Source: Thermodesulfobacterium commune DSM 2178
Lineage (GTDB): Bacteria; Desulfobacterota; Thermodesulfobacteria; Thermodesulfobacteriales; Thermodesulfobacteriaceae
DNA: 32,000 bases
Assembly (NCBI RefSeq): GCF_000734015.1
Contig: NZ_CP008796.1
Coordinates: forward strand, 720,001 to 752,000
Direction of reading: 5' to 3'
Shown: positions 11,527 to 31,566 of the stretch, piece by piece
Layout: each line of letters opens with the position of its first letter
How positions within the stretch are numbered: position 1 is the first letter of the stretch
The notes under the pieces: generated by a model
Databases searched by the model: none
The model's input: only the letters and a program-made list of their open reading frames with translations
Told to the model about the DNA's origin: nothing
Position numbers and translations under genes: made by a program

Positions 11527-11530
11527 GCTT

Positions 11531-12610: not shown

Positions 12611-12637
12611 CTTATCCCTCCTTTTTTAATAATTACA

Positions 12638-15631: not shown

Positions 15632-16244
15632 CTTTTTTGGTTATTTCAATTATGTTAAAAGGCTCTAACACTATGAGGTATGCTGATATATTAACATCAG
15701 GATAAAGTTTTTGCAACAAAGAAACATAGCCCTTAAGTTGGTCTTCATCTCTAAGATCAGAAGCCTGATGAAGTTTAAACTCAAAAATTATCCAACCCGA
15801 AAGAGACTTAATTATTAAATCTGGCCTTACCATCTTGGCATCTTCTGTTTTTTCATCAAACAAAAAACCTTCTACTTCAGAATATATGTTTTTAGCCTGC
15901 TTTAAAACCTTGCAAATCAGTTTTTTAAATTCAATTTCTTCAAAAAGTTTAAGTAAGGTCTCTTTTGCGTTCTTTTCTATCTCTTCTTTCCCAAAAATAG
16001 GTTCTTGATACAGAGCTAAAGCTTTTTTTAGATAAAAGGAAATTTTTTGAGTAAAAAACTCTTTATCGTGAAAAAGTGTTTTGATATCTTTTTCACAAAC
16101 CAATAAACTTTCTAAAGTAAAGTGTAAAATTTCTCCTATGAAACGGTTGATGGTTTCCTGGTTAAGCTGTCTTTTTGAGAGATTATTTTGCTTTAAGATT
16201 AACCCCATGTTTTTAAATTTTACCTCAAAAGAAGGTCTTGTCAA
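15576..16244 (-). CDS. Stand-alone RecB/AddA-type PD-(D/E)XK nuclease-domain protein
   Basis: GEILHFTLESL is G-x-x-x-H-x-x-L-E-like, VRPDLIIKSLSGWIIFEFKL is the D...E-x-K core, and QLKGYVSLL is QxxxY. The track start is TTG 16244. ATG 16208 (MGLILKQ..., GAGGT upstream) is a more conventional start. The 3' end overlaps the AddB-like start by 56 nt. Confidence 0.55.
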   Translation of the reverse strand: MTRPSFEVKFKNMGLILKQNNLSKRQLNQETINRFIGEILHFTLESLLVCEKDIKTLFHDKEFFTQKISFYLKKALALYQEPIFGKEEIEKNAKETLLKLFEEIEFKKLICKVLKQAKNIYSEVEGFLFDEKTEDAKMVRPDLIIKSLSGWIIFEFKLHQASDLRDEDQLKGYVSLLQKLYPDVNISAYLIVLEPFNIIEITKKDASSYTNSCQLSLFENLS

Positions 16245-16299
16245 AAAAACGAAAAGGTATATTCTAAATTTGAGTTAAAATTAGACAGGAGGCCTAACC

Positions 16300-17367
16300 A
16301 TGGAAATTGAAATTCATTTAGCTAAACCTGAAGATAGAAAGGCCCCTAATTTTGATAAACTTGTCTTTGGTAAAATTTTTACTCCTCATATGTTTGTGAT
16401 GAAATATGAGGAAGGTAAAGGCTGGCATTCTCCAAAAATAATCCCGTTTTCGAACATAGAACTTCACCCTGCTGCTATAGTGTTGCATTATTCACAAACC
16501 ATATTTGAAGGGATGAAGGCCTATTTTGGGGTTGACGGAAAGATTAGGCTTTTTAGGCCTTTTGACCATATAAATAGATTAAATCGTTCTGCAGACAGGA
16601 TGTGTATTCCTCAGGTAGACCCTAACTTTGCCTTTGAGGCTATTAAAACTTTAGTTTTGTTAGACAAAGACTGGATACCTAAGCAAAAAGGATCAGCTCT
16701 TTATATAAGGCCCTTCATTTTTGCTACAGAAAATACACTTGGGGTAAAAGTTAGTCATGAATATCTTTTTATGATAATTCTTTCTCCTGTAGGCCCTTAC
16801 TATGCCGAGGGATTTAACCCGGTTAAGATTTATGTAACTGAAGAATATGTAAGGGCTTGTCCAGGAGGAACAGGCGAGGTAAAAACTGGTGGAAACTATG
16901 CAGCAAGCCTTAAAGCCCAGGCTGTAGCTCAACAAAAAGGGTATACCCAAGTGCTATGGTTAGACGGAAAAGAAAGAAAGTATGTAGAAGAAGTAGGTAG
17001 TATGAACATCTTTTTCTATTTTTCTGACGAATTAGCCACCCCTGCTCTTTCTGGATCGATCCTTCCAGGGATAACCAGGGATTCTGTATTAAAACTTGCT
17101 TCTCATTTAGGAATTCCTGCTAAGGAAAGAAAAATTTCTATAGATGAAGTAATCTCAGCAATACAGGAAGGTAGGCTGAAAGAGTGCTTTGGAACAGGAA
17201 CTGCTGCTGTGATTTCTCCGGTAGGAGAAATTTGTTACAAAGACAAACCCTATGTAATAGGGCAAGGTCAAACAGGAGAACTTACCAAAAAGTTTTTCGA
17301 TTATATCACTGGAATACAATACGGAGAAAGAGAGGACGAGTTTAACTGGACGGTGGTGTTGGAATAA
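16300..17367 (+). CDS. ilvE: Branched-chain amino acid aminotransferase (fold type IV PLP enzyme)
   Basis: Family blocks include LHYSQTIFEGMKAY, FRPFDHINRLNRSADRM, LYIRPFIF, GGTGEVKTGGNYAASL, EEVGSMNIFF, ILPGITRDSV and ECFGTGTAAVISPV. An AGGAGG RBS is present. Confidence 0.92.
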   Translation: MEIEIHLAKPEDRKAPNFDKLVFGKIFTPHMFVMKYEEGKGWHSPKIIPFSNIELHPAAIVLHYSQTIFEGMKAYFGVDGKIRLFRPFDHINRLNRSADRMCIPQVDPNFAFEAIKTLVLLDKDWIPKQKGSALYIRPFIFATENTLGVKVSHEYLFMIILSPVGPYYAEGFNPVKIYVTEEYVRACPGGTGEVKTGGNYAASLKAQAVAQQKGYTQVLWLDGKERKYVEEVGSMNIFFYFSDELATPALSGSILPGITRDSVLKLASHLGIPAKERKISIDEVISAIQEGRLKECFGTGTAAVISPVGEICYKDKPYVIGQGQTGELTKKFFDYITGIQYGEREDEFNWTVVLE

Positions 17368-17380
17368 AAGGTGTATTGAC

Positions 17381-17833
17381 CTAAAAATCTACTACTTTTC
17401 TGGCTTTAGCAAGTTCTCTCTGTACTTGTACAGCTTTGTCTAATTCTAAATCTGCAGCTTCTTCAAGCCCTTTTTCTCTTAATATTTGACTTCTTGCCAT
17501 ATAGGCAGCAGGATAAACCGGTTCTAAGTCTATAGCTCGAGTAAAAAGCTCAAGGGCCTTATCTAAGTCTTTTTTCTTATAATAAATTTGCCCTAACCTA
17601 AAATATAATCTTGGATTTTCTGGTTCTAACGAAAGAGCCCTTTCTAAATCTTTTTCTGCTAAGTCTAACTGATCTTTTTGCAAGTAGATCACAGCCCTTG
17701 CCTCTAAAGCCTTGATGTGGTTAGGGTCTAAGGCTAAGACCTTCTCAAAACATTCTAAAGCCTCGTCAAACCTTCTAAGGGTTATCAGTTTAGCTCCTTC
17801 TAAAAAAAGGTCTTCTATATCTACCTGAGACAT
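17381..17833 (-). CDS. Tetratricopeptide (TPR) repeat protein
   Basis: The 150-aa product has repeated 34-aa A/L/Y/P patterns (ALECFEKVLALDPNH, AEKDLERALSLEPEN, ALELFTRAIDLEPVY). Confidence 0.85.
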   Translation of the reverse strand: MSQVDIEDLFLEGAKLITLRRFDEALECFEKVLALDPNHIKALEARAVIYLQKDQLDLAEKDLERALSLEPENPRLYFRLGQIYYKKKDLDKALELFTRAIDLEPVYPAAYMARSQILREKGLEEAADLELDKAVQVQRELAKARKVVDF

Positions 17834-17954
17834 AACCTCACCTCTTCTTACAATTTTTTCTAACTAAATTTATACTCTTTTGTAAATAAATCAACTCTGT
17901 AAGAGGACTATTTCAACGGCAACCTTAACTCAGCTCTTATTGATTACTATCTCC

Positions 17955-18062
17955 TTAAATGATCTCTATCTCTTTACGGCTTAAATCATAAAGCTTGTAG
18001 ACAAGCTCGTCAATCTGAAGATCGTATTCTTTGAACTTGGCTTGCTTTAGAGGGTTGGAGGG
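17955..18062 (-). pseudogene. Relic: last ~35 codons of a Type IIG/Eco57I/PglX-like RM methyltransferase gene (C-terminal tail only)
   Basis: The minus-strand frame reads PSNPLKQAKFKEYDLQIDELVYKLYDLSRKEIEII-TAA, with the stop at 17955-17957. It is closed upstream by an in-frame stop at 18063-18065 and has no start codon. The tail pattern IDxLVYxLYxL(T/S)xxEIxII-stop is the characteristic C-terminus of that enzyme class. Confidence 0.5.
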
Positions 18063-18102
18063 TTACCGTCAGATTAGGTGAGAGAGATGGTTTTAATTCG
18101 CA

Positions 18103-18858
18103 TTATCCTTCTACGTACTTCATGGCCCCAAAGTATTCTTTAACGTTTGAAATTTCCACTTTTTCCCTGTTAATCATAGAGGAAACCTTAGTATAAAATC
18201 TTTTTATTTTGCTGTTTACATCAAGAGGCGGGTGGACTTCAAAAAGCTTTAACAAAAATGAATGATATTTACTAAATGAATCATCTGCCAAAAAGAAAGG
18301 TAAAATTATGTTGAAAAACATTTCCCTTTTTCTGCTTATACCGATACGCTTGAAATTCATTATTTTTTCAACAGCCATCTTGGCAGATGACTTCTCCACT
18401 ATACCGGTGTAATTGACCTCTATCTGCTTTTTGAAATAATTGTAAATTCCCATTTGAGTTGTTTCAGCTAGCAAGTGGGAAAAATCTTTTATTCTTCTGT
18501 CAGGAAAGTTTACGGGACGTATTGACCTGTAGTTCCAGTATGTTTTCTCTAATCTCAGGGAAATGTCAAAGTCAGGGGGAAGGCCAGAATAATCTTCTAC
18601 AAATCCAGCTCTGTAGAGCAGAGCCTTTTCTATGAGCGGTTGAGTGTTGAGTTTTTTTATTTCTCTGTATGGAAGAAGAAGAGAAAGCTCCAAAAACTGA
18701 AGCTTGTTCCTGGGATAGCCAAGGGAAAGCATTAGCTCCCTGTAGAGGGCTTCGTCAAAATCAGCAATCTTCAAAAGGTTTTTCATCCGATGAATTTTTG
18801 AATATAAAACTTCTTCCCCGAACCTGCTAAGAATTTGCCGTAGTTCCGATGTTTGCAT
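18103..18858 (-). CDS. DUF2851-like protein, corresponding only to the central/C-terminal part of the family (N-terminal domain absent)
   Basis: The blocks FDEALYRELMLSLGYPRNKLQFLELSLLLPYREIKKL...LIEKALLYRAGF and WNYRSIRPVNFPDRRIKDFSHLL match my recollection of the conserved mid-region blocks of DUF2851. The ORF lies 61 nt downstream of the methyltransferase on the same strand, with a GGTAGGA RBS-like element. Confidence 0.45.
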   Translation of the reverse strand: MQTSELRQILSRFGEEVLYSKIHRMKNLLKIADFDEALYRELMLSLGYPRNKLQFLELSLLLPYREIKKLNTQPLIEKALLYRAGFVEDYSGLPPDFDISLRLEKTYWNYRSIRPVNFPDRRIKDFSHLLAETTQMGIYNYFKKQIEVNYTGIVEKSSAKMAVEKIMNFKRIGISRKREMFFNIILPFFLADDSFSKYHSFLLKLFEVHPPLDVNSKIKRFYTKVSSMINREKVEISNVKEYFGAMKYVEG

Positions 18859-18919
18859 GTATAAATCCTACCTTATTGGAGCTTTATCGTATTCACCTTT
18901 TGATATATTTCCACCACAT

Positions 18920-21900
18920 TTACACACTCTTTGCTTTATCCAGTCTTGCCTTTACAAGCTCGGCAACTGCCCAGTAGACTTCTTTGCGTTCTTGTTCAGT
19001 AAGTCCTAAAGCGTCAAAAACGATATCGTCAAGTTCTTTCCTGTCGGGTAGAGGGTTTGGCTCTTGTTCACGGATGGGATGGTTGGGGTCAAAACCAAGT
19101 TCGGTGAAGATATTTTCTATATTTCTTGATCTGAGTCTGTTAAAGGAATTTAATATTTTCCTTGAAACAACTTCTGGATTTACCACCTGTATATTTACCA
19201 AATCAACGCCTAAAGAACTCAGGCCACCCTCTCCGAGAACTTTTCTTCCATGTAGCTCTTTACCAAACCACACCATGGTAGAATTAAGTATGGCTCCCGT
19301 AATATCAAAATCATATTTTGGATATAACACTGAAAATGTATCCGCAGCATAAATGTGCGAACGATAAATTCTATGTGAATCGTTATGTATTCTTGACCAT
19401 AAATATGAATTTTTTTCCTGCTCTCCCAAATCCCACCATAAATTTCTACTTCTACATGTTGGTCTTTTGTGATATTTTTGCCTCTCCCCGCACTCAATAT
19501 ACTCCAACGTCTTTGTCCCTTTCAGTTCCCCCTTGCTCTTATGACACATAAAAACCAAATAATTCAAATCCTCAAGCTTTACCATTATGGTTTTTAGTTC
19601 TCTTGGGCTTTTTATAACCGGCTTTAAAAACTCCGCCTCAATTTCACCTTCCCAGCCAGCACCATTTTTTACTCTGATTAATGCTTTTGGATCTCTTTCA
19701 GCAACTTCTACAACTTCCTTAACAGTCATACCAACTGGTTTAAGATAAAAGAATTCGTTGGCACCTGTTTTGATTCCAAATCTTACCTCTGCAATATCTC
19801 CCAATCTTACCAGTTTATCTTTTCCTTTTTCCAGAATCTTAAAATAAATCTCTGGTGCTCTTAGGTATTTCCCACCCCATTTGTTGCCGATATAAGGTAA
19901 AGATTCTACAGAATGCCTTAATCCTAATTCTGTTTCTTCTTCTGGATATTCCACGCCCTCTTCTAAAAGCTCTTTTTTGGTTTTTGGATAAACTCTAAAG
20001 AGAAGATGGTCAAAAATAGGTTTGTTTGCTATTTCAATTTCTTTAAGAACATCTGGCGATATGGCTTCTTCAAATGGCTTTTTAAAAGCAACGAATTTTA
20101 TTACATAATCTTCCAGTTTGTTTGCTGGCTTTTGGATTAAAACAATCACCGTGTTAACATCTGCCTGCTTGAATGAACGCTTGGCAAGGTTGTCAATTAT
20201 GTAAATTGGCTTCATGTTTTTAAGAAGAAATTCCTGAAGTCCTGCACCATATCCTACATCAAGCCAGCTATTGGAGTTTATGAAGCAGAAAATCCCTCCA
20301 TCATTGAGCAAGGATAAGCCCTGATAGTAGAAGTACACATATAAATCACTCTTTTTGTCTATTTTTTTAACATCTTTCCAGACGCTTTGAACTGCTTGTA
20401 TGAGCTTCTCTTTGTATTGTTTTTTAATCTCTCTCCATTCATCAGGAGTATAATTTTCTTCTCTTGCAAGGGGTGGGGCTATAAGTTCTTGCCTTACATA
20501 CGGTGGATTTCCAATAACGATGTCAAAACCACCCTTTTGAGCAAAAACTTCTGCAAAATCAATTTCCCAGAGAAAGTAATCCTTCTTTTCACCTTTACCG
20601 ATTGTATAAAGAACATTTTGGTATTTGTGTATTTCATTTTCAAATTGCTTTATTTCTTCTTCAAGTTTTTTTAGTTCTTTTTCTTGTGATCTATCTTTTT
20701 CAAAAAGATCTTTTTGACCTTTTAAGCTATTTAATTCTTTCTCTTTAAAATTTCTTTTTTCTGTTAATTCATCAATTCTTTTCTGCAAAATCTCCCTGAA
20801 AATCTCCATCTCTAAGCTTTCTATCTCATACTTTTCTTTTAAGTCTGCACTTCTTTTTCCGGAGAAATAATCTGCTTTTCTATCAATCAGTTCGGCAATT
20901 TTCTGCTGGATGGATTTTGGTAATGTTTTTAGAGCATTTCCTCTTAAATTTATGAATACCCCTCCTATCTCTTCAACCAGTGAGTCACCCTGTCGAATTT
21001 TAAAAGAAAGGTTTGGAAGAAGTGGCTTTGTGTAAATGTCCATATATTTTTCATCGGTTTCAATGATGAGCGAAAGCCAGAGACGAAGTTCACCAACCAT
21101 CACAGCCCAGTCTTTGATGTCAACACCGTAAAGGTTTTCAAGGATTATTCTGTTTTTCAGGGCGAAGAGGTTCTCTTCCCTGTTTTCTATCTTTCTTGTG
21201 AGTTCAGAATGAAGCTCCACCAGCACGCTCATCATTCCAACAAGAAAAGAAGCAGAGCCAACCGCAGGGTCAACAATTTTAACCTCTTCAAGGTATCTGC
21301 GGATGAGTTTCAGATTATCAATGTTTTCGTATTTGCTGATTGATGGTGGATTAAAAATAAGGTCTATCAAATCTTGCTTGTCAATGCCTGCTTTAGCATG
21401 AAGATATTCAACTAAAGACAGCCTGCACATTAAATCTATTTCGTTTCTGGGGGTGTAGAAAATTCCAGAAGAACCACGTTCCTCTTCGTTTATCAAGGAT
21501 TCATATACTTTACCGAGCATTTCAGGGTCAACCGCAACTTCCACGTCAAGAGGTGTTGCCTCATCAATGGTAAAATTGAAAATTTCAAGAAATCCCTTCT
21601 TTTTGTCAGAAGACCACAAATCAGGCTCAAACAACCATTCAAAAACTTCATCAGGCACATCAAAGCCAATCTTATCTAATTCATTCTCCGAGAAAAGACC
21701 GCCATTTAAAAAAGGCATCGTGGAGTAAGATTCTTTAATATCGTCAGGCAACTCAGAATGGATGAATTGAAATCTTTTATTAAATGCTCCAAAAAATAGG
21801 CTTTTTAACCATATAGAATAAAATTTATCCTTTTTACAGTGCTTTTCTTTGTATTTCAACCACAGATTTTTTAAATAACTTTTGTCTTGCTCGTAGTTTT

Positions 21901-22633
21901 TCCATTTAAGCCATCCTTTCTTCTGAAGGAAGTAAATAAACAGGATTCTTGATAAGAGTTGTTGTGCAAAGGAATGTTTTTTCTCATAAGGAATTTCGTT
22001 TATATTCTCGTGTTTTAGATTTTTGATAATTACTTCGTGGAGCGCATAGCGGTAGGCATCAAAAAATTCTTGAGTAACTACTTCAACATTAAAAGCCTCT
22101 TCCAGATCTTTTAAGGCAGGTTTCCAATCATCATTTTCAAGAAGCGGTAAAAACCTGCTCTGGGCGGTGTGGCTCTTTTCGTTCTTTCCTACAAGGAAAG
22201 ACCATCTTCTGGCGGGGGTAATTTCTTCTTTAACCTTTTTCTCCTCAAAACGATAGTCCATCTTAACAAGTGAAAATCTCCAGTCTTCGCTGGTTGGGGA
22301 GACAAAGGCAACCAGCGCGGCATCTGTTAACCTCCCCTTCAGATACCAGGCGATGAAGTTTCTCTGCATCGTCCTTGCACGTTCAAGGGAAGTTTCTTTC
22401 TTAAGCTCTACTATAAGAAGGTCTATCTCCTTTCCGTCGTAGTTATACTTTCCAACTCTTTCCAGAGTCCTTACGTATTTTTCAAAGGCGTCTGGGATGT
22501 AGTTCCCCTGATAGACAAAGGTGCTTTCCTCAAAGGATTTCAAAAGGTTTCTCAGGAAATAAACAAAGCGGTCTTTAGCAAAGGGATTTTCAAAGGTGTT
22601 GATTATAAGCTTTTTTGCCTGCTCTCTATCCAT
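18920..22633 (-). CDS. Large gamma-class N6-adenine DNA methyltransferase of Type IIG/Eco57I-like architecture (N-terminal PD-ExK-like domain, helical linker, MTase with coiled-coil insert, C-terminal target-recognition region)
   Basis: The N-terminus carries D66-X9-E76-X-K78 (YDGKEIDLLIVELKKE...MQRNFIAWY). GIFYTP lies at aa 390-395, SAM motif I IVDPAVGSASFLVG at aa 453-466, and motif IV GNPPYV has NPPY at nt 20498-20509. A charged coiled-coil spans about aa 595-675. TRD-like FGIKTGANEFFYL is present, and the C-terminal tail is LDDIVFDALGLTEQERKEVY. Confidence 0.9.
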   Translation of the reverse strand: MDREQAKKLIINTFENPFAKDRFVYFLRNLLKSFEESTFVYQGNYIPDAFEKYVRTLERVGKYNYDGKEIDLLIVELKKETSLERARTMQRNFIAWYLKGRLTDAALVAFVSPTSEDWRFSLVKMDYRFEEKKVKEEITPARRWSFLVGKNEKSHTAQSRFLPLLENDDWKPALKDLEEAFNVEVVTQEFFDAYRYALHEVIIKNLKHENINEIPYEKKHSFAQQLLSRILFIYFLQKKGWLKWKNYEQDKSYLKNLWLKYKEKHCKKDKFYSIWLKSLFFGAFNKRFQFIHSELPDDIKESYSTMPFLNGGLFSENELDKIGFDVPDEVFEWLFEPDLWSSDKKKGFLEIFNFTIDEATPLDVEVAVDPEMLGKVYESLINEEERGSSGIFYTPRNEIDLMCRLSLVEYLHAKAGIDKQDLIDLIFNPPSISKYENIDNLKLIRRYLEEVKIVDPAVGSASFLVGMMSVLVELHSELTRKIENREENLFALKNRIILENLYGVDIKDWAVMVGELRLWLSLIIETDEKYMDIYTKPLLPNLSFKIRQGDSLVEEIGGVFINLRGNALKTLPKSIQQKIAELIDRKADYFSGKRSADLKEKYEIESLEMEIFREILQKRIDELTEKRNFKEKELNSLKGQKDLFEKDRSQEKELKKLEEEIKQFENEIHKYQNVLYTIGKGEKKDYFLWEIDFAEVFAQKGGFDIVIGNPPYVRQELIAPPLAREENYTPDEWREIKKQYKEKLIQAVQSVWKDVKKIDKKSDLYVYFYYQGLSLLNDGGIFCFINSNSWLDVGYGAGLQEFLLKNMKPIYIIDNLAKRSFKQADVNTVIVLIQKPANKLEDYVIKFVAFKKPFEEAISPDVLKEIEIANKPIFDHLLFRVYPKTKKELLEEGVEYPEEETELGLRHSVESLPYIGNKWGGKYLRAPEIYFKILEKGKDKLVRLGDIAEVRFGIKTGANEFFYLKPVGMTVKEVVEVAERDPKALIRVKNGAGWEGEIEAEFLKPVIKSPRELKTIMVKLEDLNYLVFMCHKSKGELKGTKTLEYIECGERQKYHKRPTCRSRNLWWDLGEQEKNSYLWSRIHNDSHRIYRSHIYAADTFSVLYPKYDFDITGAILNSTMVWFGKELHGRKVLGEGGLSSLGVDLVNIQVVNPEVVSRKILNSFNRLRSRNIENIFTELGFDPNHPIREQEPNPLPDRKELDDIVFDALGLTEQERKEVYWAVAELVKARLDKAKSV

Positions 22634-22642
22634 GAGTTTCTC

Positions 22643-25600
22643 CTACTCACCGTTCGCCAAGTATAAGGAGAGTATAACTTCTCTCTTTTCCTCGGTTACG
22701 ATGGATACTTCAGAGTAATGACTTTCAAGAAGTCTGTTTGAGATTTCTTTATGCAAGACTGCAATAACCTTTAAGGGATTTAATTTTTCTCTGCCAAGTT
22801 TATTTAGCTCAGACAGGACTTTTTTTACCGTTTGTTTAGGCAAGGCTCCACGCTCAAGCTGGGTTATGACTCGTTTGAGGTATTCTTCCTGATCTTCGGT
22901 GAGCTGTTTGCTGTGACTTTGCGTTGCCTTAAGCTCTATAATAAGTTTGCTATAAATATCTTTACTACTATGCTTGTGTTTTACTATCTCTTCTGCTGTT
23001 GAGTAAAAGAATGCTGTTTTATTCTTGTGTAGCAACTCGTAGTAAGTTTCAACGGGAATTTCTACCCTCTTTTCGTCAACTAATGATTCCAAGATTTTAG
23101 CAGTAGTCAAAAAATCAAGCTCAATCGTTCTATTCTTCTCTGATAAAAAAAACTTCATTAGCTTTCCCTTTCTGAAAAATGTAACGAGAGAGCCGGGACT
23201 GGCAACATTACTTAAAGATGGATTGAAAACTTTCCCTGAGCGGGCTTTTTTGGGGAGGCATTTTATCTTTTCAAAGAGCTCTGGATTTTTGTCCCTTATG
23301 TCCTCAATAACTCTCAAATACTTAAGTTCGCTTTCTTCTTCCTCATCTTCTGTGATGGTCTTCTTTGAAAGGAGTTTATCAAATAACTCATGAGAAGATA
23401 CAGGCTCACCTTCAGTCAGAATGGCGCTATCTCCACCAAGCAAGGTAAGGAAGGCTTCTATCTTTGAACGGGCGATGTTTGTAAGCTCTATCTCAGACTC
23501 AGACTGTTTTGTTGGAAAAAAGTTAAAGGTGTAAATTTTGTCAAAGGGGGTGTCTATACGGTTAACCCTCCCCACTCTTTGCATCAACTTCGTTGGGTTC
23601 CAAGGTATATCGTAGTTTATCACTATGTTTGACCTGTGAAGGTTGACACCTTCTGAGAGAACCTCTGTTGACACAAGAATTCTATAATCATCCTTTTTAT
23701 TCTTGGCCCTTGCGTCAAAGTTTTCTATGACTTTGTCCCTGTCGGCTTCAGATGAATTTCCGTGGAAAAGGAGCGCGATTTCTTTTTTGAAATACTCGTT
23801 TATCTTTTCTGTTAAATACTCTGCAGTCTCTTTTGATTCCGTGAAAATAATTACCTTCTTGTCCTTAAGTATTGGGTTATTTTCAAGGTTTGAGAGTAGG
23901 ACTTCAATTTTGGGGTCTCTTTTTATTTTGCCCCACATTGATTTTATTCTTTTTAAAATTTCAAGGTCTTCTTTCAAATCTCTTCCAAACTCAGGCCTGA
24001 AATCTTCTTTGTTATACTTCTCTGCCTTTCCTTCATCAATAATTTTCTGAATTTCTTTATCATCCCCCTTTTCTATGAGGTTAAATATTTTATTTATATA
24101 GTCCTTACTTACATACACATTCCCTTTTTCAAATTCTTTAATGAACATTTCATATGAACGAATAAACCTGTCAATGCTACTTTTGAAAGCGTGGAAGCTA
24201 CTTTCAAGGCGCTTAACAAGAAGGACTTTCATAAAGCCAGCCATGTTCCTCTGCGATTGCTCTTCAAGAGGTTTTATTCCTTTTTTTAAATAAAGAAGTG
24301 GCGTGTAGCGAGCATATTTAAACTCTTGAGTTATGAGCCTTACTGTTTCTGTGAAAATTTCATCTTCTTCATCGTTGAGCTGATAGTAAAGGGGCTTAGG
24401 GTCTTCAACCTCTGGAAACTTGACGTTGTTTCGTCCTAAATCTTCGGCAAAGTATTTCTCAATCTCGCTTCTTGTTCTCCTGATCATGATATGTTTCAGC
24501 ACTTTGTTGCGGATTTCTTTGGCGTTCTCTCTTGTTATTTCAAGGAATTTTTCGTAATCTCTCTGACGATTGACTTTGCTTAGCCTTCTTTCAAGCTCTT
24601 TGAAAAACTCTTCAAGATTGCTAACACCTGGTATGGTGCTTTTTCTAACATTCTGAAAGAGTTTGATTTGAGCAAGAATATCGCTTGGGTAGTTATTATA
24701 AGGAGTAGCAGATACCAAAATCACCCTTTTTCCACGGCATATCTCTGCAAGCTTCTCATATCTCTTGGTCTCCTCTGTTCTGAAGTAGTGTGCTTCGTCT
24801 ATCACAACATTTTTATATTCTCTGTTTTCTATCATCTGAATGGCATCGTCAAGTTTGCCGATTGATACGAAATCAGCCTGCACGTTAAAATCGGAAAAAA
24901 CATTAGGCCATGAACCGGGATTATTTTTGGTTAGGAGTGCAGGAGGGGCCACGACAAGCGTTCTTCCATCAAGCTGTTTTACGAGCATCGCGGTGATATA
25001 AGTTTTTCCGAGCCCAACCACATCGGAAATGAATACCCCACCATGTTCTTCTAAAATCTTTTTTGCGTTCAACACTGCTTGTTCCTGGTATTCAAACCGT
25101 TTAAACCCTTGCGGTAAGTAAACCAAAGAAAGTTTTTCCTTCAGAGAAAGGTCTTCTTTAAAGTATTCGTAGAGGAATTTCAGATATAATTCGTAAGGGG
25201 TTATGTTATCGTTGAGCCAGGTTTTTTCATTGATTGTTTGAACATATTTCTCACTGACAGGAACAGCCTCAGACCACAACGCTTCAAATCTCTCTTTGGC
25301 AAAAAAATAGTCGGATGGATTTTTCAGTTCAACGTTGAATTCCAGTTTTTTCTCAAGCCCAGAATAAGTAAGGTTGCTTGAACCTGTAATAACCCTTCCA
25401 ATGTCTCTGTCCCCCTCTCTAAAAGTCATGATATAGAGCTTTGCATGAAGTTTCTTTGATGGATATGCTCTTATTTCAAGCTTTCCTTTTTTTATCCATT
25501 CGATGAATTTTTTAATCCCAATTTCAACCTTAAGGTCATCTTCAGAATCAGCCATTTCTTGCTCAATCAACTCAACCACCTTTTCTTTTGTTTCTGCATG

Positions 25601-25894
25601 AGAAGGACGTGAAGACGGATTCTGTGCCGACTTTATCAATTCAAGGGTTTGTCTATCCGTTCCTAAACCTATGAGAATTCTTATCTTTTCAGTTTTTTCT
25701 AAAGGTTCAACAAGTAGGTGAAAGCCACTCAAATAAAAATACGCAACCAGACAATCAAAGTACTTACAGTCCTTTATAAGCTCACACAGTCTATCTGTTA
25801 ATTTCTTCCCTGATTCGTTAGTTATGAAGGTTAAATCAAGAGGCACTTTTTCATTAACCATAGTATTTTTATCTTGATTTAAACATTTTGTCAT
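22643..25894 (-). CDS. Fusion protein: N-terminal PLD-family (single HKD) nuclease domain + SNF2/DEAD-like superfamily 2 helicase
   Basis: The HKD motif is LHAKLYIM...GRVITGSSNLT (H150, K152, G171-S-S-N174; nt 25373-25447). Helicase motifs are I DVVGLGKT (aa 291-298), II VIDEAHY (DEAH 366-369), III VSATPYNN, V/VI STEVLSEGVNLH and PWNPTKLMQRVGRVNR. The stop TAG 22643-22645 lies within TAGGAG, the SD for the methyltransferase ATG at 22633. Confidence 0.9.
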   Translation of the reverse strand: MTKCLNQDKNTMVNEKVPLDLTFITNESGKKLTDRLCELIKDCKYFDCLVAYFYLSGFHLLVEPLEKTEKIRILIGLGTDRQTLELIKSAQNPSSRPSHAETKEKVVELIEQEMADSEDDLKVEIGIKKFIEWIKKGKLEIRAYPSKKLHAKLYIMTFREGDRDIGRVITGSSNLTYSGLEKKLEFNVELKNPSDYFFAKERFEALWSEAVPVSEKYVQTINEKTWLNDNITPYELYLKFLYEYFKEDLSLKEKLSLVYLPQGFKRFEYQEQAVLNAKKILEEHGGVFISDVVGLGKTYITAMLVKQLDGRTLVVAPPALLTKNNPGSWPNVFSDFNVQADFVSIGKLDDAIQMIENREYKNVVIDEAHYFRTEETKRYEKLAEICRGKRVILVSATPYNNYPSDILAQIKLFQNVRKSTIPGVSNLEEFFKELERRLSKVNRQRDYEKFLEITRENAKEIRNKVLKHIMIRRTRSEIEKYFAEDLGRNNVKFPEVEDPKPLYYQLNDEEDEIFTETVRLITQEFKYARYTPLLYLKKGIKPLEEQSQRNMAGFMKVLLVKRLESSFHAFKSSIDRFIRSYEMFIKEFEKGNVYVSKDYINKIFNLIEKGDDKEIQKIIDEGKAEKYNKEDFRPEFGRDLKEDLEILKRIKSMWGKIKRDPKIEVLLSNLENNPILKDKKVIIFTESKETAEYLTEKINEYFKKEIALLFHGNSSEADRDKVIENFDARAKNKKDDYRILVSTEVLSEGVNLHRSNIVINYDIPWNPTKLMQRVGRVNRIDTPFDKIYTFNFFPTKQSESEIELTNIARSKIEAFLTLLGGDSAILTEGEPVSSHELFDKLLSKKTITEDEEEESELKYLRVIEDIRDKNPELFEKIKCLPKKARSGKVFNPSLSNVASPGSLVTFFRKGKLMKFFLSEKNRTIELDFLTTAKILESLVDEKRVEIPVETYYELLHKNKTAFFYSTAEEIVKHKHSSKDIYSKLIIELKATQSHSKQLTEDQEEYLKRVITQLERGALPKQTVKKVLSELNKLGREKLNPLKVIAVLHKEISNRLLESHYSEVSIVTEEKREVILSLYLANGE

Positions 25895-26401
25895 TTAAAA
25901 ATTACTACTATATACCAAATAAATACCATATAAACAAATCTGAGTCAATAAGGTAGTGTTCCCCCTAATTTGCCGATAAAAATTTATAATCATCCATAAT
26001 CTCCCCATTTTCCAATTGCTCTAAACGATTTATAATATCACCCATTGGGTAAAAAAATTTTCTAAATCTAAGAGGGTGCCATTATACTGCAAAACTCTCT
26101 TAACTTCAAAATCCTGATAACTAACAAAAATCTAACAACTAATTCAGAATTTTTTTGTTGGTGCCTTTACCTGATTCAAACAGATGTTATAGTGCCTGGT
26201 AATGTATCCAACCTATCCTTCTTATCCTTATAGGGGGAGATCATATCTGGTAGATTAAAATTTTTAGTCTAAAAATTACAGGAAATTTTTTTGATTTTAT
26301 TTTCTATTAGTATTTTCGTTATAAAAACCCTCTTGATTTATTGAAAGTTTTTTGCTAAATTGGTTTCAATTTTTTATAAAACTGAAAAATGAGGTAGGCT
26401 T

Positions 26402-27682
26402 ATGTTTTTGAGTTTATTTCTAATTTTTTTAAGTTTTTTTCCGTTCTTAGTATTAAAGGCTTATGGGGCTGGAATTGCTATCTATGAACAAGGGGTTAGT
26501 GGGCTTGGCAATGCCTATGCAGGGGCTGCAGCTTCGGCTGAAGACGGAAGTACTATTTTTTACAACCCTGCAGGACTCACTAAACTTACCAAGCCTGAAA
26601 TTTCCTTAGGTACTCATGTAATCATACCTACCGCTCATTTTAAAAACACAGGCTCGATTAAGGCTGATAAAACACCTCTTACTGGAAACAACGGCGGAGA
26701 TGCAGGGGTAATAGGGATAGTTCCTAACCTTTATGTTTCAACCCCGATAAATGAAAAGTTTTTTTTAGGTATAGGGATAAACTCTCCTTTTGGATTGCAG
26801 ACTGAGTATGACAAAAACTGGGTAGGTAGATATCATGCTATAAAGTCAAAGCTTATAACCATAAACTTAAACCCGGCTATGGCTTATAAACTCAATTCAA
26901 AGGTTAGTTTGGGTTTAGGGGCAAACTTTCAACGGGCAGAGGCAGAAATAACCAATGCAATAGATTTTACCAAATATGGAATTACTCAAGATGGTTTTGC
27001 CAGATTAAAAGGAGATGACTGGTCTTTTGGTTGGAATGCAGGCATTCTCTATGAACCCTCAGAAAATACCAGATTGGGTGTTGCTTACAGGTCTAAGATA
27101 ACCCACCAACTAAAAGGAAAGGTTAAGTTTGAAAATATCTCTTTTCCTTTAAGCAGTATATTTCATAAAGATAATGTTAAAGCCCGTCTTGACCTTCCTC
27201 CAATGCTATCTTTTAGCGGTTTTCATAAGCTAAACTCAAAATGGACCGTTTTGGCAGACATCACCTGGACTAGTTGGAGCAGGTTTGAAGAATTAAGAAT
27301 TAAGTATGATACTTTAACCATAGGAGACACAGTGATTACCACCAAGTGGAAAGATTGCTTCCGCTACTCTATAGGCTTATCTTATCAACCTACCTATAAA
27401 TGGGTTTTTCGCTCAGGCATAGCCTATGATGAAACCCCTATTGCTTTTGATAAACATAGAACTCCAAGGATCCCAGACACAGACAGGTTTTGGATAGCTT
27501 TAGGTTTAGGTTATACCTTATCTGAAAAACTGAAGTTTGATTTAGGATATGTGCACATATTTTTTAAAAAATCTTACATAGATAAAGACCCTGTAGGAGA
27601 AGATGAACGAAGAGGTGGTTTAAAAGGTTATTATCGAGGTCATGTAGACATAATAAGCGCTCAGTTGCGTTATAGTTTTTAA
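26402..27682 (+). CDS. fadL: Outer-membrane long-chain fatty acid / hydrophobic compound transporter (FadL/OMPP1/TodX family)
   Basis: A signal peptide is followed by GAGIAIYEQGVSGLGNAYAGAAASAEDGSTIFYNPAGL, the family N-terminal hatch motif. The rest has beta-strand periodicity and ends in a terminal Phe. Confidence 0.88.
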   Translation: MFLSLFLIFLSFFPFLVLKAYGAGIAIYEQGVSGLGNAYAGAAASAEDGSTIFYNPAGLTKLTKPEISLGTHVIIPTAHFKNTGSIKADKTPLTGNNGGDAGVIGIVPNLYVSTPINEKFFLGIGINSPFGLQTEYDKNWVGRYHAIKSKLITINLNPAMAYKLNSKVSLGLGANFQRAEAEITNAIDFTKYGITQDGFARLKGDDWSFGWNAGILYEPSENTRLGVAYRSKITHQLKGKVKFENISFPLSSIFHKDNVKARLDLPPMLSFSGFHKLNSKWTVLADITWTSWSRFEELRIKYDTLTIGDTVITTKWKDCFRYSIGLSYQPTYKWVFRSGIAYDETPIAFDKHRTPRIPDTDRFWIALGLGYTLSEKLKFDLGYVHIFFKKSYIDKDPVGEDERRGGLKGYYRGHVDIISAQLRYSF

Positions 27683-27702
27683 TTTGAAAAGAGGGAAAGA
27701 AC

Positions 27703-29229
27703 ATGCAACTTCATGAAAAATTTATTTATACAGCTAAAGCCTATCCTAATAAAATAGCTATTGTTGACAGAGCCATTGATAAAAGGTTTACTTATCAACA
27801 AGCCTTGATTGCAAGTCTTATTTTTTCCCGAAAAATAAGAAAATTTAGGGATCGATTGATTGGAGTTATGCTTCCTAACTCCTCTGCAGCCGTCTTTACA
27901 GTAGTAGGTATTCTTATGGCTGGAAAAATCCCAGTGATGATTAATTATTCTACCGGTCCAGAGTATAACATAAGATATGCAAGGGAAAAATGTAGTTTTA
28001 AGACGGTGGTGACTTCTAAGAAACTGCTTGAAAGGGTAAACTGTCCAGTTTTGGAAGACATGGCTTTTGTAGAAGACTGGATAGAGGAGATAGACTTAAA
28101 AGAAAAGTTAATCTCGTCAGCCATCTCACGGCTTCCTTTAAAATTTCTTATGACTTATTGTAACATCGATGAAGATGCAGAAAAAACAGCAGTTATACTT
28201 TTTACCAGTGGAAGCGAAAAAGACCCTAAGGCTGTGGAATTAAGTCATAAAAACATTCTTAGCAACATAGAAGGTTTTAGTGAGATGGCTAAGCTTACAG
28301 AAAAAGACATCATACTTTCCATTTTACCTTTTTTTCATGTTTTTGGGATAACCGTAAATCTCTGGACACCACTTTATCACGGTATGACTTTTATTACCTA
28401 TCAAACCCCACTTGAGTATCAAAAGATCTGTCAAATTATAAAGGAAGAAAGACCTACAGTTATGGCGGCTACTCCAAGTTTTTGGTGGGGGTATCTTAAA
28501 AAGGCAGAACCAGGAACCTTTGACAGCTTAAGGCTTATGGTAAGTGGAGCAGATAAATGTCCTCAATCTCTTAGAGATGCTATGTGGGAAAAGCACAGAA
28601 AAATACTTTTAGAAGGCTATGGGACTACTGAGACCTCACCTGCCATCTCAGCTAACATGCCTGATGCTAACAAACCTGGGAGTGTAGGAAAACCACTCCC
28701 TAACGTGGAAGTTATGATAGAGAACTACGAAACAGGAGAAAGGTGTGGGCCTAATGAAATAGGAAGAATTTTAGTAAAAGGTCCTAACGTAATGAAGGGT
28801 TATTATAACGATTTAGAAGAAACCTCTATGAGGATAAGACATGGATGGTATGACACAGGAGATATGGGTTATTTAGATGAAGATGGTTATCTCTGGCATG
28901 TCGGAAGACTTAAAAGGTTTGTTAAAATAGGTGGAGAAATGATATCTTTGGTTAAAGTAGAAGAGGAGTTAGAAAAGGTTCTACCTAAGGAGATAGAATG
29001 TTGTGTGGTAGAAGTACCTGATGAAATTAAAGGGGCTAAAATCGTTGCAGTGGTAAGCCAAAAGATAGATGAAAAGTCAGTGGTAAAACAACTTGCTAAG
29101 GTGCTCCCAAATTTAGCAATGCCTAAACAATTTTTAATCATCGAAGAACTCCCTAAGATGGGAAGTGGGAAAATAAACTTTAGTAAAGTACAAGAAATGG
29201 TGATAGAAAGGCTGAAGCTTAAAGGTTAA
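27703..29229 (+). CDS. AMP-dependent synthetase/ligase (acyl-CoA or acyl-ACP synthetase)
   Basis: The AMP-binding motif is ILFTSGSEKDPKAV (T-S-G-[ST]-x-x-x-P-K). EGYGTTETSP, WYDTGDMGYLDEDGYLWHVGRLKRFVKIGGE and a C-terminal GSGKI are also present. Confidence 0.88.
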   Translation: MQLHEKFIYTAKAYPNKIAIVDRAIDKRFTYQQALIASLIFSRKIRKFRDRLIGVMLPNSSAAVFTVVGILMAGKIPVMINYSTGPEYNIRYAREKCSFKTVVTSKKLLERVNCPVLEDMAFVEDWIEEIDLKEKLISSAISRLPLKFLMTYCNIDEDAEKTAVILFTSGSEKDPKAVELSHKNILSNIEGFSEMAKLTEKDIILSILPFFHVFGITVNLWTPLYHGMTFITYQTPLEYQKICQIIKEERPTVMAATPSFWWGYLKKAEPGTFDSLRLMVSGADKCPQSLRDAMWEKHRKILLEGYGTTETSPAISANMPDANKPGSVGKPLPNVEVMIENYETGERCGPNEIGRILVKGPNVMKGYYNDLEETSMRIRHGWYDTGDMGYLDEDGYLWHVGRLKRFVKIGGEMISLVKVEEELEKVLPKEIECCVVEVPDEIKGAKIVAVVSQKIDEKSVVKQLAKVLPNLAMPKQFLIIEELPKMGSGKINFSKVQEMVIERLKLKG

Positions 29230-30125: not shown

Positions 30126-30208
30126 CGTTTTCTAATTTTATCACAGCGACAAAAGTTTGAAAAGAATTAGGGCTTGACAACCGAGGATATCGTTTAAAAA
30201 TAAAGGGT

Positions 30209-30946: not shown

Positions 30947-31333
30947 AAAAGGCTTGATGATATCTCTTAGGGTTATGATACCTACAACTTCATCTCCTCT
31001 GGTTACAGGAAGTCTGATCAATCCTGTCATTTCCATAAGTTTCGCAGCATATTTGATGTCATAAAATTCAGGTACAGTTATACAGGGTTTGGTCATTATT
31101 TCTAAAACTTTGACCTTTTCTAAAGGTAACCCTTTAGCTATTACTTTGTAGACTATATCTTTAACTGTGATGATTCCATAAGCATCTTCTTCGTCTGTTT
31201 TTTCTACCACCAATCCTCTACAACCATTTTTTATCATAAAATCTGCCGCTTCTTTAACTGTGGCATTTCCGTTGATGGTAAACACAGGGGTACTCATAAC
31301 ATCTTTAACCCTGATTTTTTCAATCTCTATCAT
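30941..31333 (-). CDS. CBS-domain pair protein
   Basis: The 130-aa product has two CBS repeats (VKDVMSTPVFTI...AADFMIKNGCRGLVV and VLEIMTKPCITV...AAKLMEMTGLIRLPV...GIITLRDI). Confidence 0.88.
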   Translation of the reverse strand: MIEIEKIRVKDVMSTPVFTINGNATVKEAADFMIKNGCRGLVVEKTDEEDAYGIITVKDIVYKVIAKGLPLEKVKVLEIMTKPCITVPEFYDIKYAAKLMEMTGLIRLPVTRGDEVVGIITLRDIIKPFL

Positions 31334-31566
31334 AGCCCTTCACCCTTTAATTTTTTGCCTCTATTATAATAAAAAATTAAAGCACAGTCAAGGTAACCTG
31401 CTTTTTTAAGTTTAATAATCTTCAAATTAAACCCATAGAGGCTGAATTAGGTTGTCAGATATTATATAAAAATTATTTTAGGATTTCGTTAGCCATAGCA
31501 TTCCCAAGTTTCTCAGCTGCTTTTAAATAACACTCTTCAATAATAGATTTGTATATCTGACACTTG

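What the first reader, a model, noticed from the sequence alone, without database searches (positions are those of the whole stretch)
18920..25894. Coupled PLD-nuclease/SNF2-helicase + giant N6A-methyltransferase operon: a split Type ISP-like or minimal DISARM-like candidate defence system
**Seen in sequence.**
- Two large minus-strand genes are separated by 9 nt. The helicase stop (TAG 22643-22645) is embedded in TAGGAG, which serves as the SD for the methyltransferase ATG (22633), so co-translation is likely.
- Gene 1 fuses a single HKD phospholipase-D nuclease motif (H150-x-K152 ... GSSN174) to a complete SNF2/SF2 motor (GLGKT, DEAH, SATP, QRVGRVNR).
- Gene 2 carries a D-X9-E-X-K motif, FYTP, DPAVGSASF and NPPY motifs, a roughly 80-aa coiled-coil insert, and a TRD-like C-terminus.

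**Established knowledge.**
- Type ISP enzymes (LlaGI/LlaBIII) combine nuclease, SF2 translocase, gamma-MTase and TRD in one polypeptide.
- Class 1 DISARM combines an SNF2 helicase (DrmD), an Eco57I-type adenine MTase (DrmMI) and an optional PLD protein (DrmC), but requires DrmA/DrmB (DUF1998).

**Inference.** The window holds PLD, SNF2 and MTase modules but no DrmA/DrmB-like genes. It also has two potential nucleases (PLD and PD-ExK) flanking one motor. That does not fit a classical Type I, II, III or ISP layout, so the pair may be an uncharacterised translocating RM-like defence module.
Basis: partly seen in the sequence, partly recalled or inferred. Interest (0 to 1): 0.85.

Follow-up and report, generated by a model that had tools for sequence, protein, structure and literature searches.

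The report
PLD-helicase plus methylase restriction module
This is a real, widely spread but apparently uncharacterised bacterial restriction-modification module. A DNA methylase that databases label "Type IIG" seems to lack its own nuclease and is instead paired with a motor-nuclease protein.

Summary
Two translationally coupled minus-strand genes in Thermodesulfobacterium commune encode a single-HKD PLD + SNF2-type helicase (1083 aa) and an Eco57I/MmeI-type N6A methyltransferase with a variable C-terminal part (1237 aa).

- **Conserved pair.** 67 of 80 related genome loci from more than 20 phyla carry the methylase just downstream. Only 2 loci with enough sequence lack an intact one. No other gene recurs widely, and DrmA/B and DUF499 are absent.
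- **Conservation.** The helicase is 57-90% identical across phyla.
- **N-terminal domain.** The methylase's first 180 aa come in three types, each paired with its own helicase clade. I read this domain as a helicase adaptor.
- **Cassette swap.** Against T. thermophilum, methylase residues ~185 to the end plus a short DUF2851 gene (18103-18858) were replaced as a block. A 33-codon stub of the old methylase remains.

Best reading: an ATP-dependent system that works like Type ISP or MANTIS but is split into two or three genes. It is neither DISARM nor a canonical Type IIG enzyme. I rate it a new variant of a known kind, with no experimental data.

The parts
22643..25894 (-). Helicase-nuclease subunit (1083 aa; RefSeq WP_038060436.1 is called from an internal start and is 1072 aa). 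It has a single-HKD PLD domain (aa 37-207), an SNF2/SF2 motor (aa ~267-790) and a conserved C-terminal region (aa ~800-1083) with no known family.
   Evidence: HKD, GSSN, Walker A, DEAH, SATP and QRxGRxxR are invariant across 17 multi-phylum homologues. The best PADLOC model is 'HKD+Snf2' (PDLC01075, 1.5e-47).
25274..25786 (-). PLD (HKD) nuclease domain with one HxK...GSSN motif per chain.
   Evidence: Pfam PLDc_2 E=9.8e-10. H150, K152, G171, S172, S173 and N174 are invariant.
22634..22645 (-). Junction between the two genes. The helicase stop TAG lies within TAGGAG (a Shine-Dalgarno-like AGGAG), 9 nt before the methylase ATG.
   Evidence: In 29 of 48 related loci the gap is 30 nt or less, and it often overlaps by 1-8 nt.
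18920..22633 (-). Methyltransferase/specificity subunit (1237 aa; WP_038060308.1). It is an Eco57I/MmeI-type gamma N6A-MTase with a helical spacer, a charged insert (aa ~560-690) and a variable C-terminal part taken to be the TRD.
   Evidence: PADLOC REase_MTase_IIG PDLC03596 E=2.8e-127. NPPY, DPAVGS and YTPR are conserved; the C-terminal part averages about 25% identity among homologues.
22082..22633 (-). N-terminal ~184-aa 'type A' domain of the methylase, proposed to be the helicase-matching adaptor. It has restriction-endonuclease-like secondary-structure order but no conserved catalytic triad.
   Evidence: It is 86.8% nucleotide-identical to T. thermophilum, whereas the rest of the gene shows no nucleotide similarity. 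It comes in three types, each found with its own helicase clade. AF2 pLDDT is 89, with no Foldseek hit in PDB.
18103..18858 (-). Short DUF2851-family protein (251 aa), 61 nt downstream of the methylase. It is a lineage-specific third gene that arrived with the methylase core cassette. Its function is unknown.
   Evidence: Homologues of 50-63% identity lie at the distal end of islands carrying the same methylase-core lineage (L010, L084, L086-L089, L091, L092). It is absent from 78 of 80 clade-A helicase loci.
17958..18056 (-). Orphan 3' stub (33 codons plus stop) of the previous methylase allele.
   Evidence: 94% identical to the last 33 aa of the T. thermophilum methylase; collinearity with T. 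thermophilum resumes at 18056.
26081..26109 (-). Candidate sigma-70-like promoter (TTGAAG-17-TATAAT), about 190 nt upstream of the helicase start.
   Evidence: This is weak evidence, because the number of promoter-like sites in the region is not above the shuffled expectation.

Best explanation
This is an ATP-dependent restriction-modification-like defence module made of two core proteins, plus an accessory DUF2851-type protein in this lineage.

**Shown**
- The composition of the two proteins and the intactness of all their catalytic motifs.
- Strict co-occurrence and translational coupling of the two genes.
- Categorical matching of methylase N-terminal domain type to helicase clade.
- Block replacement of the methylase core and C-terminal part.

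**Inferred mechanism**
1. The large methylase acts as the specificity and self-marking subunit. Its variable C-terminal part, taken to be the TRD, reads a short and probably asymmetric DNA site. Its gamma-class N6-adenine methyltransferase marks host DNA.
2. The methylase's N-terminal ~180-aa domain is not an active nuclease. It docks the partner protein.
3. The partner is the restriction subunit, an SNF2-type dsDNA translocase carrying one HKD half-site.
4. Two partner chains must come together to form one PLD active site, as in BfiI, SauUSI and MtsD.
5. At unmethylated sites the methylase recruits or licenses the motor-nuclease. The motor translocates using ATP and cuts when two motors or sites meet.

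It works like a Type ISP or Type III enzyme, or like MANTIS stripped of its extra ATPase.
For: **Conserved pair**
- 67 of 80 loci carrying a helicase homologue have a methylase homologue directly downstream on the same strand.
- 11 of the 13 exceptions are contig ends. One retains only a C-terminal methylase fragment, and one lacks a methylase.
- Only these two families recur in most of the 80 loci.
- More distant relatives (31-36% identity) in Parabacteroides and Prevotella keep the pairing.

**Catalytic integrity**
- All helicase and PLD motifs are invariant.
- NPPY and the AdoMet-binding motifs are conserved.

**Specificity logic**
- Mean pairwise identity is 66% for the helicase and about 25% for the methylase C-terminal part.

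**N-terminal domain as adaptor**
- Methylase cores that are 50-70% identical carry N-terminal types A, B or C.
- Among the loci examined, type A was found only with helicase clade A, type B with clade B and type C with clade C. The clades share only 25-33% identity with each other.
- Types A and B are homologous (hhalign probability 96.5%), yet they share no conserved acidic catalytic residues.
- The domain profile hits 2407 representatives, always at the N-terminus of proteins of roughly 1000-1340 aa.

**Recombination**
- Window and T. thermophilum are collinear at 93-95% nucleotide identity, except for 18057-22081. The swap leaves the N-terminal domain with the helicase.

**Defence-island behaviour**
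- The same kinds of gene that I recall as common inserts in Type I RM operons sit between the two genes in other loci: SLFN_AlbA_2+HATPase_c_4, Bro-N, ORF6N and AbiEii.

**Precedent for the effector type**
- SauUSI and the MANTIS protein MtsD are dimeric PLD-SF2 nucleases (10.64898/2026.09.23.753747).
- HKD+SF2 fusions are described as restriction components in PMC10853773 and PMC12839542.
Against: - There are no experimental data: no methylome, no phage or plasmid assay, and no demonstration of a physical complex.
- The N-terminal domain has the secondary-structure order of the PD-(D/E)XK fold, and D71 is conserved within type A. An unconventional nuclease activity is therefore not excluded.
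- The full-length helicase model was too poor to use (pLDDT 55). Dimerisation and the role of the conserved C-terminal ~280 aa are inferred only.
- The categorical covariation rests on few B and C loci (3 each). One type B locus (L087) has no helicase within 6 kb.
- Within clade A, helicase identity correlates no better with the N-terminal domain (rho 0.49) than with the methylase core (rho 0.61).
- The role of the DUF2851 protein is unknown.
Confidence: 0.68

Rival explanations
1. Two independent neighbours: an autonomous Type IIG restriction-modification enzyme with its own N-terminal nuclease, next to a separate SauUSI-like Type IV (modification-dependent) PLD-helicase endonuclease.
For: - PADLOC labels the methylase as Type IIG at E=2.8e-127.
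- This particular sequence does contain D66-X9-E76-X-K78.
- The helicase has SauUSI's PLD plus SF2 layout and an unassigned C-terminal domain that could in principle read DNA.
Against: - Adjacency, co-orientation and short or overlapping junctions hold across phyla.
- Methylase N-terminal type matches the helicase clade.
- The ExK motif is not conserved.
- No SRA or DUF3427 reader domain was detected.
- A modification-dependent nuclease that is obligatorily linked to a methylase would risk self-attack.
Confidence: 0.1
2. One reading: both the PLD domain and the methylase N-terminal PD-ExK-like domain are active, and they flank one motor.
For: - The secondary-structure order alpha-beta-beta-beta-alpha-beta in the confident model is compatible with a restriction-endonuclease fold.
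- There is a weak Cas4-family hit at E=0.066.
- D71 is 90% or more conserved within type A.
Against: - E76 is conserved in 2 of 41 sequences and D66 is variable.
- No lysine occupies the canonical (D/E)xK position across the family.
- Homologous type B domains lack D71.
- Foldseek finds no nuclease match, with best TM about 0.3.
Confidence: 0.1
3. A reduced or dispersed form of a known multi-gene system (Class 1 DISARM or MANTIS/BREX-related type 2) whose missing partners (DrmA/B, or DUF499/DUF3780) are encoded elsewhere in the genome.
For: - The helicase gives sub-threshold hits to DrmD and to the PLD-helicase anti-phage family, and the methylase gives a weak DrmMI hit.
- The module content overlaps that of MtsC and MtsD.
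Against: - No such partner is present in the 32-kb window or recurs in 80 loci with up to 10-kb flanks.
- All equivalog scores fall far below their cut-offs.
- The unit moves as a 2-3 gene block between housekeeping genes.
Confidence: 0.07
4. The module is not a defence system. It could be an epigenetic regulator (a phase-variable methylase) with a chromatin or repair helicase.
For: - Some T. commune metagenome-assembled genome (MAG) alleles are split at an A7 tract. This recalls phase-variable Type IIG methylases such as Cj0031, which is referenced in PMC9881135.
Against: - Distribution is patchy and horizontal across phyla.
- The C-terminal part diversifies rapidly and whole cassettes are swapped.
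- A PLD nuclease is fused to the motor with invariant catalytic residues.
- Neighbouring genes are defence-island hitchhikers.
Confidence: 0.05

Closest known systems
MANTIS / Gao_RL (BREX-related type 2; MtsABCD)
   Same: Both have an N6A methyltransferase that gives specificity and self-marking, plus a separate effector with an N-terminal single-HKD PLD nuclease fused to an SF2 ATPase. In MANTIS that effector (MtsD) is dimeric with one composite active site.
   Different: There is no DUF499 AAA+ ATPase (MtsA) and no small co-regulator MtsB (called DUF3870 in the preprint and DUF3780 in PMC12839542). The helicase scores 148 bits against an 1100-bit cut-off for the NCBIfam PLD anti-phage equivalog, which I take, without verification, to be the MtsD-type family. 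The methylase has its own ~180-aa N-terminal domain that tracks the helicase clade. The gene order is helicase then methylase, with tight coupling.
Type ISP restriction-modification enzymes (LlaGI, LlaBIII)
   Same: The module order is the same: nuclease, SF2 translocase, gamma N6A-MTase, TRD. The expected behaviour is also the same: an asymmetric site, one-strand methylation and ATP-driven translocation (PMC3874165).
   Different: Here the enzyme is split into two polypeptides. The nuclease is a PLD/HKD type rather than an Mrr-like PD-QxK type. Extra conserved domains sit at the junction: the helicase C-terminal ~280 aa and the methylase N-terminal ~180 aa.
Type IIG / IIL enzymes (Eco57I, MmeI, BpuSI)
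   Same: The methylase and TRD architecture and the sequence families match: Pfam Eco57I and MmeI_Mtase, and the PADLOC Type IIG model at 424 bits.
   Different: The family lacks a conserved N-terminal D...ExK. Its N-terminal domain does not match the BpuSI nuclease by Foldseek. It is obligatorily linked to a helicase-nuclease. PglX offers a parallel case: it was formerly listed as Type IIG in REBASE and is now listed as a methyltransferase (PMC12707154).
Class 1 DISARM (DrmD, DrmMI, DrmA, DrmB, DrmC)
   Same: It contains an SNF2 helicase, an Eco57I-type adenine methylase and a PLD nuclease.
   Different: DrmA/DrmB are absent. The PLD is fused to the SNF2 protein rather than being a separate DrmC. 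The DrmD and DrmMI models score far below threshold or below the Type IIG model.
SauUSI (Type IV)
   Same: An N-terminal single-HKD PLD domain fused to an SF2 ATPase in one chain.
   Different: SauUSI is autonomous and targets 5mC through a C-terminal SRA/DUF3427 domain. No such domain was found here, and this protein is coupled to a methylase.

Membership tests
Class 1 DISARM | DrmA (YprA-type helicase) and DrmB (DUF1998) encoded in the locus | tested here: not met
   Pfam and PADLOC scans of the window's other large ORFs show only housekeeping genes. No such family recurs in 80 loci with flanks of up to 10 kb.
Class 1 DISARM | The helicase is a DrmD equivalog | tested here: not met
   NCBIfam DISARM_DrmD scores 154 bits against a 610-bit cut-off. 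DrmD_b scores 79.5 against 950.
Class 1 DISARM | The methylase is DrmMI | tested here: not met
   The PADLOC DrmMI model gives 63 bits, against 424 bits for a Type IIG model.
Type ISP | Single polypeptide carrying nuclease, motor, MTase and TRD | tested here: not met
   There are two ORFs with a stop codon and a 9-nt gap. No fused homologue appears among the top 120 hits of either protein.
Type ISP | Mrr-like PD-(Q/E)xK nuclease at the N-terminus of the motor | tested here: not met
   The motor's N-terminus is a PLDc_2 domain.
Type IIG (combined R-M in one chain) | Gamma N6A-MTase plus C-terminal TRD of the Eco57I/MmeI type | tested here: met
   Pfam Eco57I at 2.6e-30 and MmeI_Mtase at 4.1e-11. 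PADLOC REase_MTase_IIG at 2.8e-127.
Type IIG (combined R-M in one chain) | Catalytically competent N-terminal PD-(D/E)xK nuclease conserved in the family | tested here: not met
   E76 is conserved in 2 of 41 and D66 is variable. Types A and B share no acidic residue. Foldseek finds no nuclease match. Activity itself was not tested.
MANTIS / Gao_RL (BR type 2) | DUF499 AAA+ ATPase (MtsA) and small co-regulator MtsB (DUF3870 in the preprint, DUF3780 in PMC12839542) | tested here: not met
   Absent from the window, and no recurrent family of this kind in 80 loci.
MANTIS / Gao_RL (BR type 2) | Effector with an N-terminal HKD nuclease fused to an SF2 ATPase | tested here: inconclusive
   The architecture is the same. 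The match to the NCBIfam family phospholipD_antiphage is only 148 bits against a cut-off of 1100, and PADLOC PLD_Helicase gives 85 bits. That these two models represent the MtsD family is my assumption. This indicates a distant relative, not an equivalog.
SauUSI-type Type IV | C-terminal modified-base reader (SRA/DUF3427) | tested here: not met
   Residues 799-1083 have no Pfam hit even at E up to 10.
ATP-dependent RM with an HKD-SF2 restriction subunit (generic kind) | Methylation protects host DNA, and restriction requires ATP hydrolysis and the HKD histidine | not testable with these tools
   This needs a methylome and genetic or biochemical assays.

The most novel reading that the evidence does not exclude
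A large, cross-phylum class of proteins is automatically called "Type IIG". At least about 2400 clusters at 50% identity carry the N-terminal domain. These proteins may be nuclease-dead specificity and methylation subunits of a distinct two-subunit ATP-dependent restriction system. Their N-terminal pseudo-nuclease domain would be a lock-and-key adaptor for a cognate PLD-SNF2 motor-nuclease, in three co-varying types. Specificity would be renewed by swapping whole methylase/TRD cassettes between conserved anchors, sometimes together with a DUF2851 cofactor.
Probability: 0.45. Interest if true: 0.72.

Novelty: new variant of a known kind. Interest (0 to 1): 0.6.

Why it matters
- **Annotation.** If confirmed, thousands of "Type IIG" calls in REBASE, DefenseFinder or PADLOC-style annotation would need re-reading as subunits of a helicase-dependent system. 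PglX was reclassified in the same way.
- **Mechanism.** It would be the simplest natural version of the "methylase targets, PLD-motor cuts" logic now being worked out for MANTIS. It has no extra AAA+ loader, which makes it a tractable model, and thermophile proteins suit structural work.
- **Open questions it could address.** How hemimethylating systems avoid self-cleavage, and how a specificity subunit licenses a translocating nuclease.
- **Engineering.** The adaptor-domain matching and cassette exchange suggest rules for engineering specificity.

Tried and rejected
1. **DISARM membership.** Rejected. There is no DrmA/B, and DrmD and DrmMI scores are sub-threshold.
2. **MANTIS/Gao_RL membership.** Rejected. 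DUF499 and the MtsB-type small protein are absent, and the score is far below the equivalog cut-off.
3. **Full-length helicase structure.** The AF2 model from 17 sequences at about 70% identity gave pLDDT 54.7. It was not used, and no fold search was run on it.
4. **Fold search for the methylase N-terminal domain.**
   - Foldseek against PDB gave only noise, with TM 0.3 or less.
   - Whether the fold is a degenerate PD-(D/E)xK is therefore unresolved.
5. **Sequence and profile searches of PDB.** Searches with both proteins, the N-terminal domain and the DUF2851 protein found no informative relatives.
6. **A conserved third gene across the helicase family.** None found. DUF2851 is limited to one methylase-core lineage.
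7. **Silent TRD cassettes or inverted repeats (programmed inversion, as in PMC9881135).** Only short chance-level repeats were found in 17000-26500.
8. **Phage carriage.** There are only 3 weak helicase-only hits in 50,697 phage records.
9. **Promoter and terminator scan.** Promoter-like sites were not above the shuffled expectation. Terminator-like sites were modestly above it (14 vs 7.1 ± 2.9) but none marked a gene boundary.
10. **Literature.** Four full-text searches found no paper naming or testing this two-gene system. Only a table entry in PMC9881135 mentions the adjacency. REBASE and subscription journals could not be searched.

Full report
**1. Observation**

The window comes from Thermodesulfobacterium commune. 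The exact proteins are WP_038060308.1 and AIH03976/AIH03977 on a 1.76-Mb genome.

Both ORFs exist as described.
- The helicase stop TAG (22645-22643) lies inside TAGGAG.
- The methylase ATG is at 22633-22631, nine bases downstream.

Pfam confirms the domains.
- Gene 1 has PLDc_2 (aa 37-207), ResIII/SNF2-rel_dom and Helicase_C.
- Gene 2 has Eco57I, MmeI_Mtase and N6_Mtase.

The neighbouring genes are housekeeping.
- On one side are FadL and an AMP-ligase.
- On the other are a TPR protein and an aminotransferase.
- The remaining large ORFs in the 32-kb window are also housekeeping.
- There is no DrmA, DrmB or DUF499.

**2. The pair is a conserved unit**

The helicase has more than 7900 database relatives. 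The top 120 come from many phyla and are still 68-90% identical over the full length. The C-terminal ~280 aa, which has no Pfam family, is equally well conserved.

A scan of one genome per species found at least 532 encoding stretches, and I kept 80 loci. The methylase was found downstream in most of them.
- In 67 loci a methylase homologue lies downstream on the same strand.
- Of the 13 loci without a hit, 11 are contigs that end within 1.5 kb of the helicase.
- One locus (L028) retains only a C-terminal methylase fragment, and one (L014) has lost the methylase.
- Junctions are 30 nt or shorter, or overlapping, in 29 of 48 measurable loci.

When the gap is large, it holds inserted genes.
- SLFN_AlbA_2+HATPase_c_4+HTH proteins occur in 14 loci.
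- Bro-N, ORF6N and AbiEii proteins occur in others.
- From my own knowledge, these same families commonly sit inside Type I RM operons.

Clustering all ORFs of the 80 loci shows that only the helicase (78 loci) and the methylase recur widely. No gene downstream of the methylase is shared between loci.

More distant relatives (31-36% identity) on Parabacteroides and Prevotella replicons keep the helicase-then-methylase layout. A Thermus plasmid has a methylase, a hypothetical gene and then the helicase.

**3. What the methylase N-terminus is**

In an alignment of 41 family members, however, E76 is kept in only 2, and D66 is variable.

Proteins sharing this methylase core at 50-70% identity carry one of three N-terminal domains of 160-180 aa. 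Among the top 120 hits there are 38 type A, 36 type B and 26 type C.
- Types A and B are homologous (hhalign probability 96.5%). They share no conserved acidic residues on the strands where a PD-(D/E)xK site would lie.
- Type C is at best marginally similar to the others.

Each type goes with its own helicase clade.
- Type A pairs with the clade of this window.
- Type B pairs with helicases only 31-33% identical to it (L084, L088).
- Type C pairs with helicases 28-29% identical, encoded downstream of the methylase (L089, L090).
- One type B locus (L087) has no helicase within 6 kb.

An AlphaFold model of residues 1-200 is confident (pLDDT 89, pTM 0.84).
- Its order of elements is alpha, alpha, three beta strands, alpha, three beta strands.
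- That order is compatible with a restriction-endonuclease-like core.
- Foldseek finds nothing in PDB above TM 0.3, and no BpuSI, LlaBIII, PglX or other nuclease appears among the listed hits.

A profile of the domain finds 2407 representatives at 50% clustering. In the listed hits it always sits at the N-terminus of proteins of about 1000-1340 aa.

I conclude that this domain is a partner-matching adaptor, possibly a dead nuclease fold. The module therefore has one conserved nuclease, the PLD.

**4. Mosaic history in this window**

The window and T. thermophilum (L001) are collinear in three blocks.

| Window region | Nucleotide identity |
|---|---|
| 11522-18056 | 92.7% |
| 22082-22644 | 86.8% |
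| 22659-31558 | 94.5% |

Region 18057-22081 has no nucleotide similarity to L001.

At the protein level, the helicase is 90% identical. Methylase residues 1-150 are 82-96% identical, and the remainder is 11-52%.

The incoming block comprises methylase residues ~185 to the end plus the next gene, a 251-aa short DUF2851 protein. Just beyond it, 17958-18056 still encodes the last 33 residues of the old allele at 94% identity.

The imported core is closest to methylases of Athalassotoga, WOR-3 and Bacteroidia (54-74% identity).

**5. The short DUF2851 protein**

Homologues lie at the distal end of islands that carry this methylase-core lineage. They are 50-63% identical, except for a fragment in L018 at 38%.
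- This holds whichever N-terminal type is present.
- Other genes are often inserted between the methylase and the DUF2851 gene.
- The loci are L010, L084, L086-L089, L091 (Hydrogenobacter thermophilus TK-6) and L092.
- Many database hits share contigs with methylase hits.
- It is absent from 78 of 80 clade-A helicase loci.

I found no family, structure or function for it. I treat it as a lineage-specific accessory. A role as a methylase cofactor, by analogy with MtsB, is speculation.

**6. Mechanism**

*Shown:*
- The composition of the module and its intact catalytic motifs.
- Translational coupling and conserved pairing.
- A helicase that is far more conserved than the methylase C-terminal part (66% against about 25% mean identity).
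- Matching of N-terminal type to helicase clade.
- Cassette exchange.

*Inferred:*
- The methylase reads a short site and marks self DNA.
- Its N-terminal domain binds the helicase-nuclease.
- The single HKD motif requires dimerisation to build one active site, as established for BfiI and SauUSI and seen in the MtsD cryo-EM structure.
- ATP-driven translocation brings two motors or two sites together for cleavage of unmethylated DNA.

**7. Comparison with known systems**

- It works like Type ISP enzymes (PMC3874165), but it is split and uses a PLD nuclease.
- It works like MANTIS/Gao_RL, but it lacks MtsA and MtsB.
- It fails the membership tests for DISARM, MANTIS, Type ISP and SauUSI, and for the nuclease criterion of Type IIG.
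- HKD-SF2 fusions are a recognised restriction module in several systems (PMC10853773 and PMC12839542).
- A table in PMC9881135 records a Cj0031-like Type II RM gene next to a PLD+SNF gene.
- I found no paper that names or tests the two-gene system. REBASE could not be consulted.

**8. Verdict**

This is a real and widespread module, and most likely a defence system. It is a new variant of a known kind.

- The module logic is anticipated by Type ISP, MANTIS and HKD-SF2 systems.
- The DISARM and dual-nuclease ideas fail.

It remains notable for four reasons.
- The adaptor-domain covariation.
- The scale of probable "Type IIG" mis-annotation.
- The unusually strong helicase conservation across phyla.
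- The clean cassette-swap scar.

Noticed in passing
window 20666-20672 (methylase nt 1962-1968, aa 654-656): An A7 tract lies in the charged insert. In at least two independent T. commune MAGs the methylase is annotated as a 660-aa N-terminal piece plus a 461-aa C-terminal piece. In one of them identity runs to aa 655, at this tract; in the other the last exact 12-residue match ends at aa 628, and both share the tail NLKKK. Other MAGs break near aa 617. This could be slipped-strand ON/OFF switching or homopolymer assembly error.
   Followed up: partly
window 17958-18056 (-): A 33-codon stub is 94% identical to the C-terminus of the T. thermophilum methylase. It marks the right-hand junction of a cassette replacement.
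   Followed up: yes
L086 11898-11999 and 12536-12718: Two extra copies of the methylase C-terminal tail (76% and 66% identical to window aa 1204-1237 and 1179-1237) lie downstream of a type C methylase. They look like scars of repeated cassette swaps that use the conserved tail as an anchor.
   Followed up: no
L091 2630-6856 (Hydrogenobacter thermophilus TK-6): The homologous methylase is 1408 aa and carries a Y1_Tnp (IS200-type transposase) Pfam hit inside it. A DUF5131 gene and an MNT/HepT toxin-antitoxin pair sit between it and the DUF2851 gene.
   Followed up: no
window 12638-15631 (-) and 15576-16244 (-): A 997-aa PDDEXK_1 (AddB-like) protein overlaps by 56 nt an upstream 222-aa ORF that has no family hit. 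A comparable PDDEXK_1 plus UvrD pair lies near the system in L088. This is probably housekeeping repair and unrelated to the module.
   Followed up: no
window 25862-25894: RefSeq annotates the helicase from an internal start (1072 aa), whereas other records use the first ATG (1083 aa). Homologues align from about residue 14-20, so the true start is uncertain.
   Followed up: no
L001-L080, helicase genes: The helicase is unusually conserved for a defence gene, at 57-90% identity across Aquificota, Thermotogota, Bacteroidota, Chloroflexota, Planctomycetota, Candidate Phyla Radiation (CPR) lineages and others. The conservation includes a ~280-aa C-terminal region with no known family.
   Followed up: partly
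L084 11736-17567: A second candidate defence cassette is inserted between the methylase and the DUF2851 gene in a Bacteroidia genome. It comprises an AAA_15/AAA_21 ATPase, a 269-aa protein and a 1061-aa DEAD/ResIII helicase.
   Followed up: no
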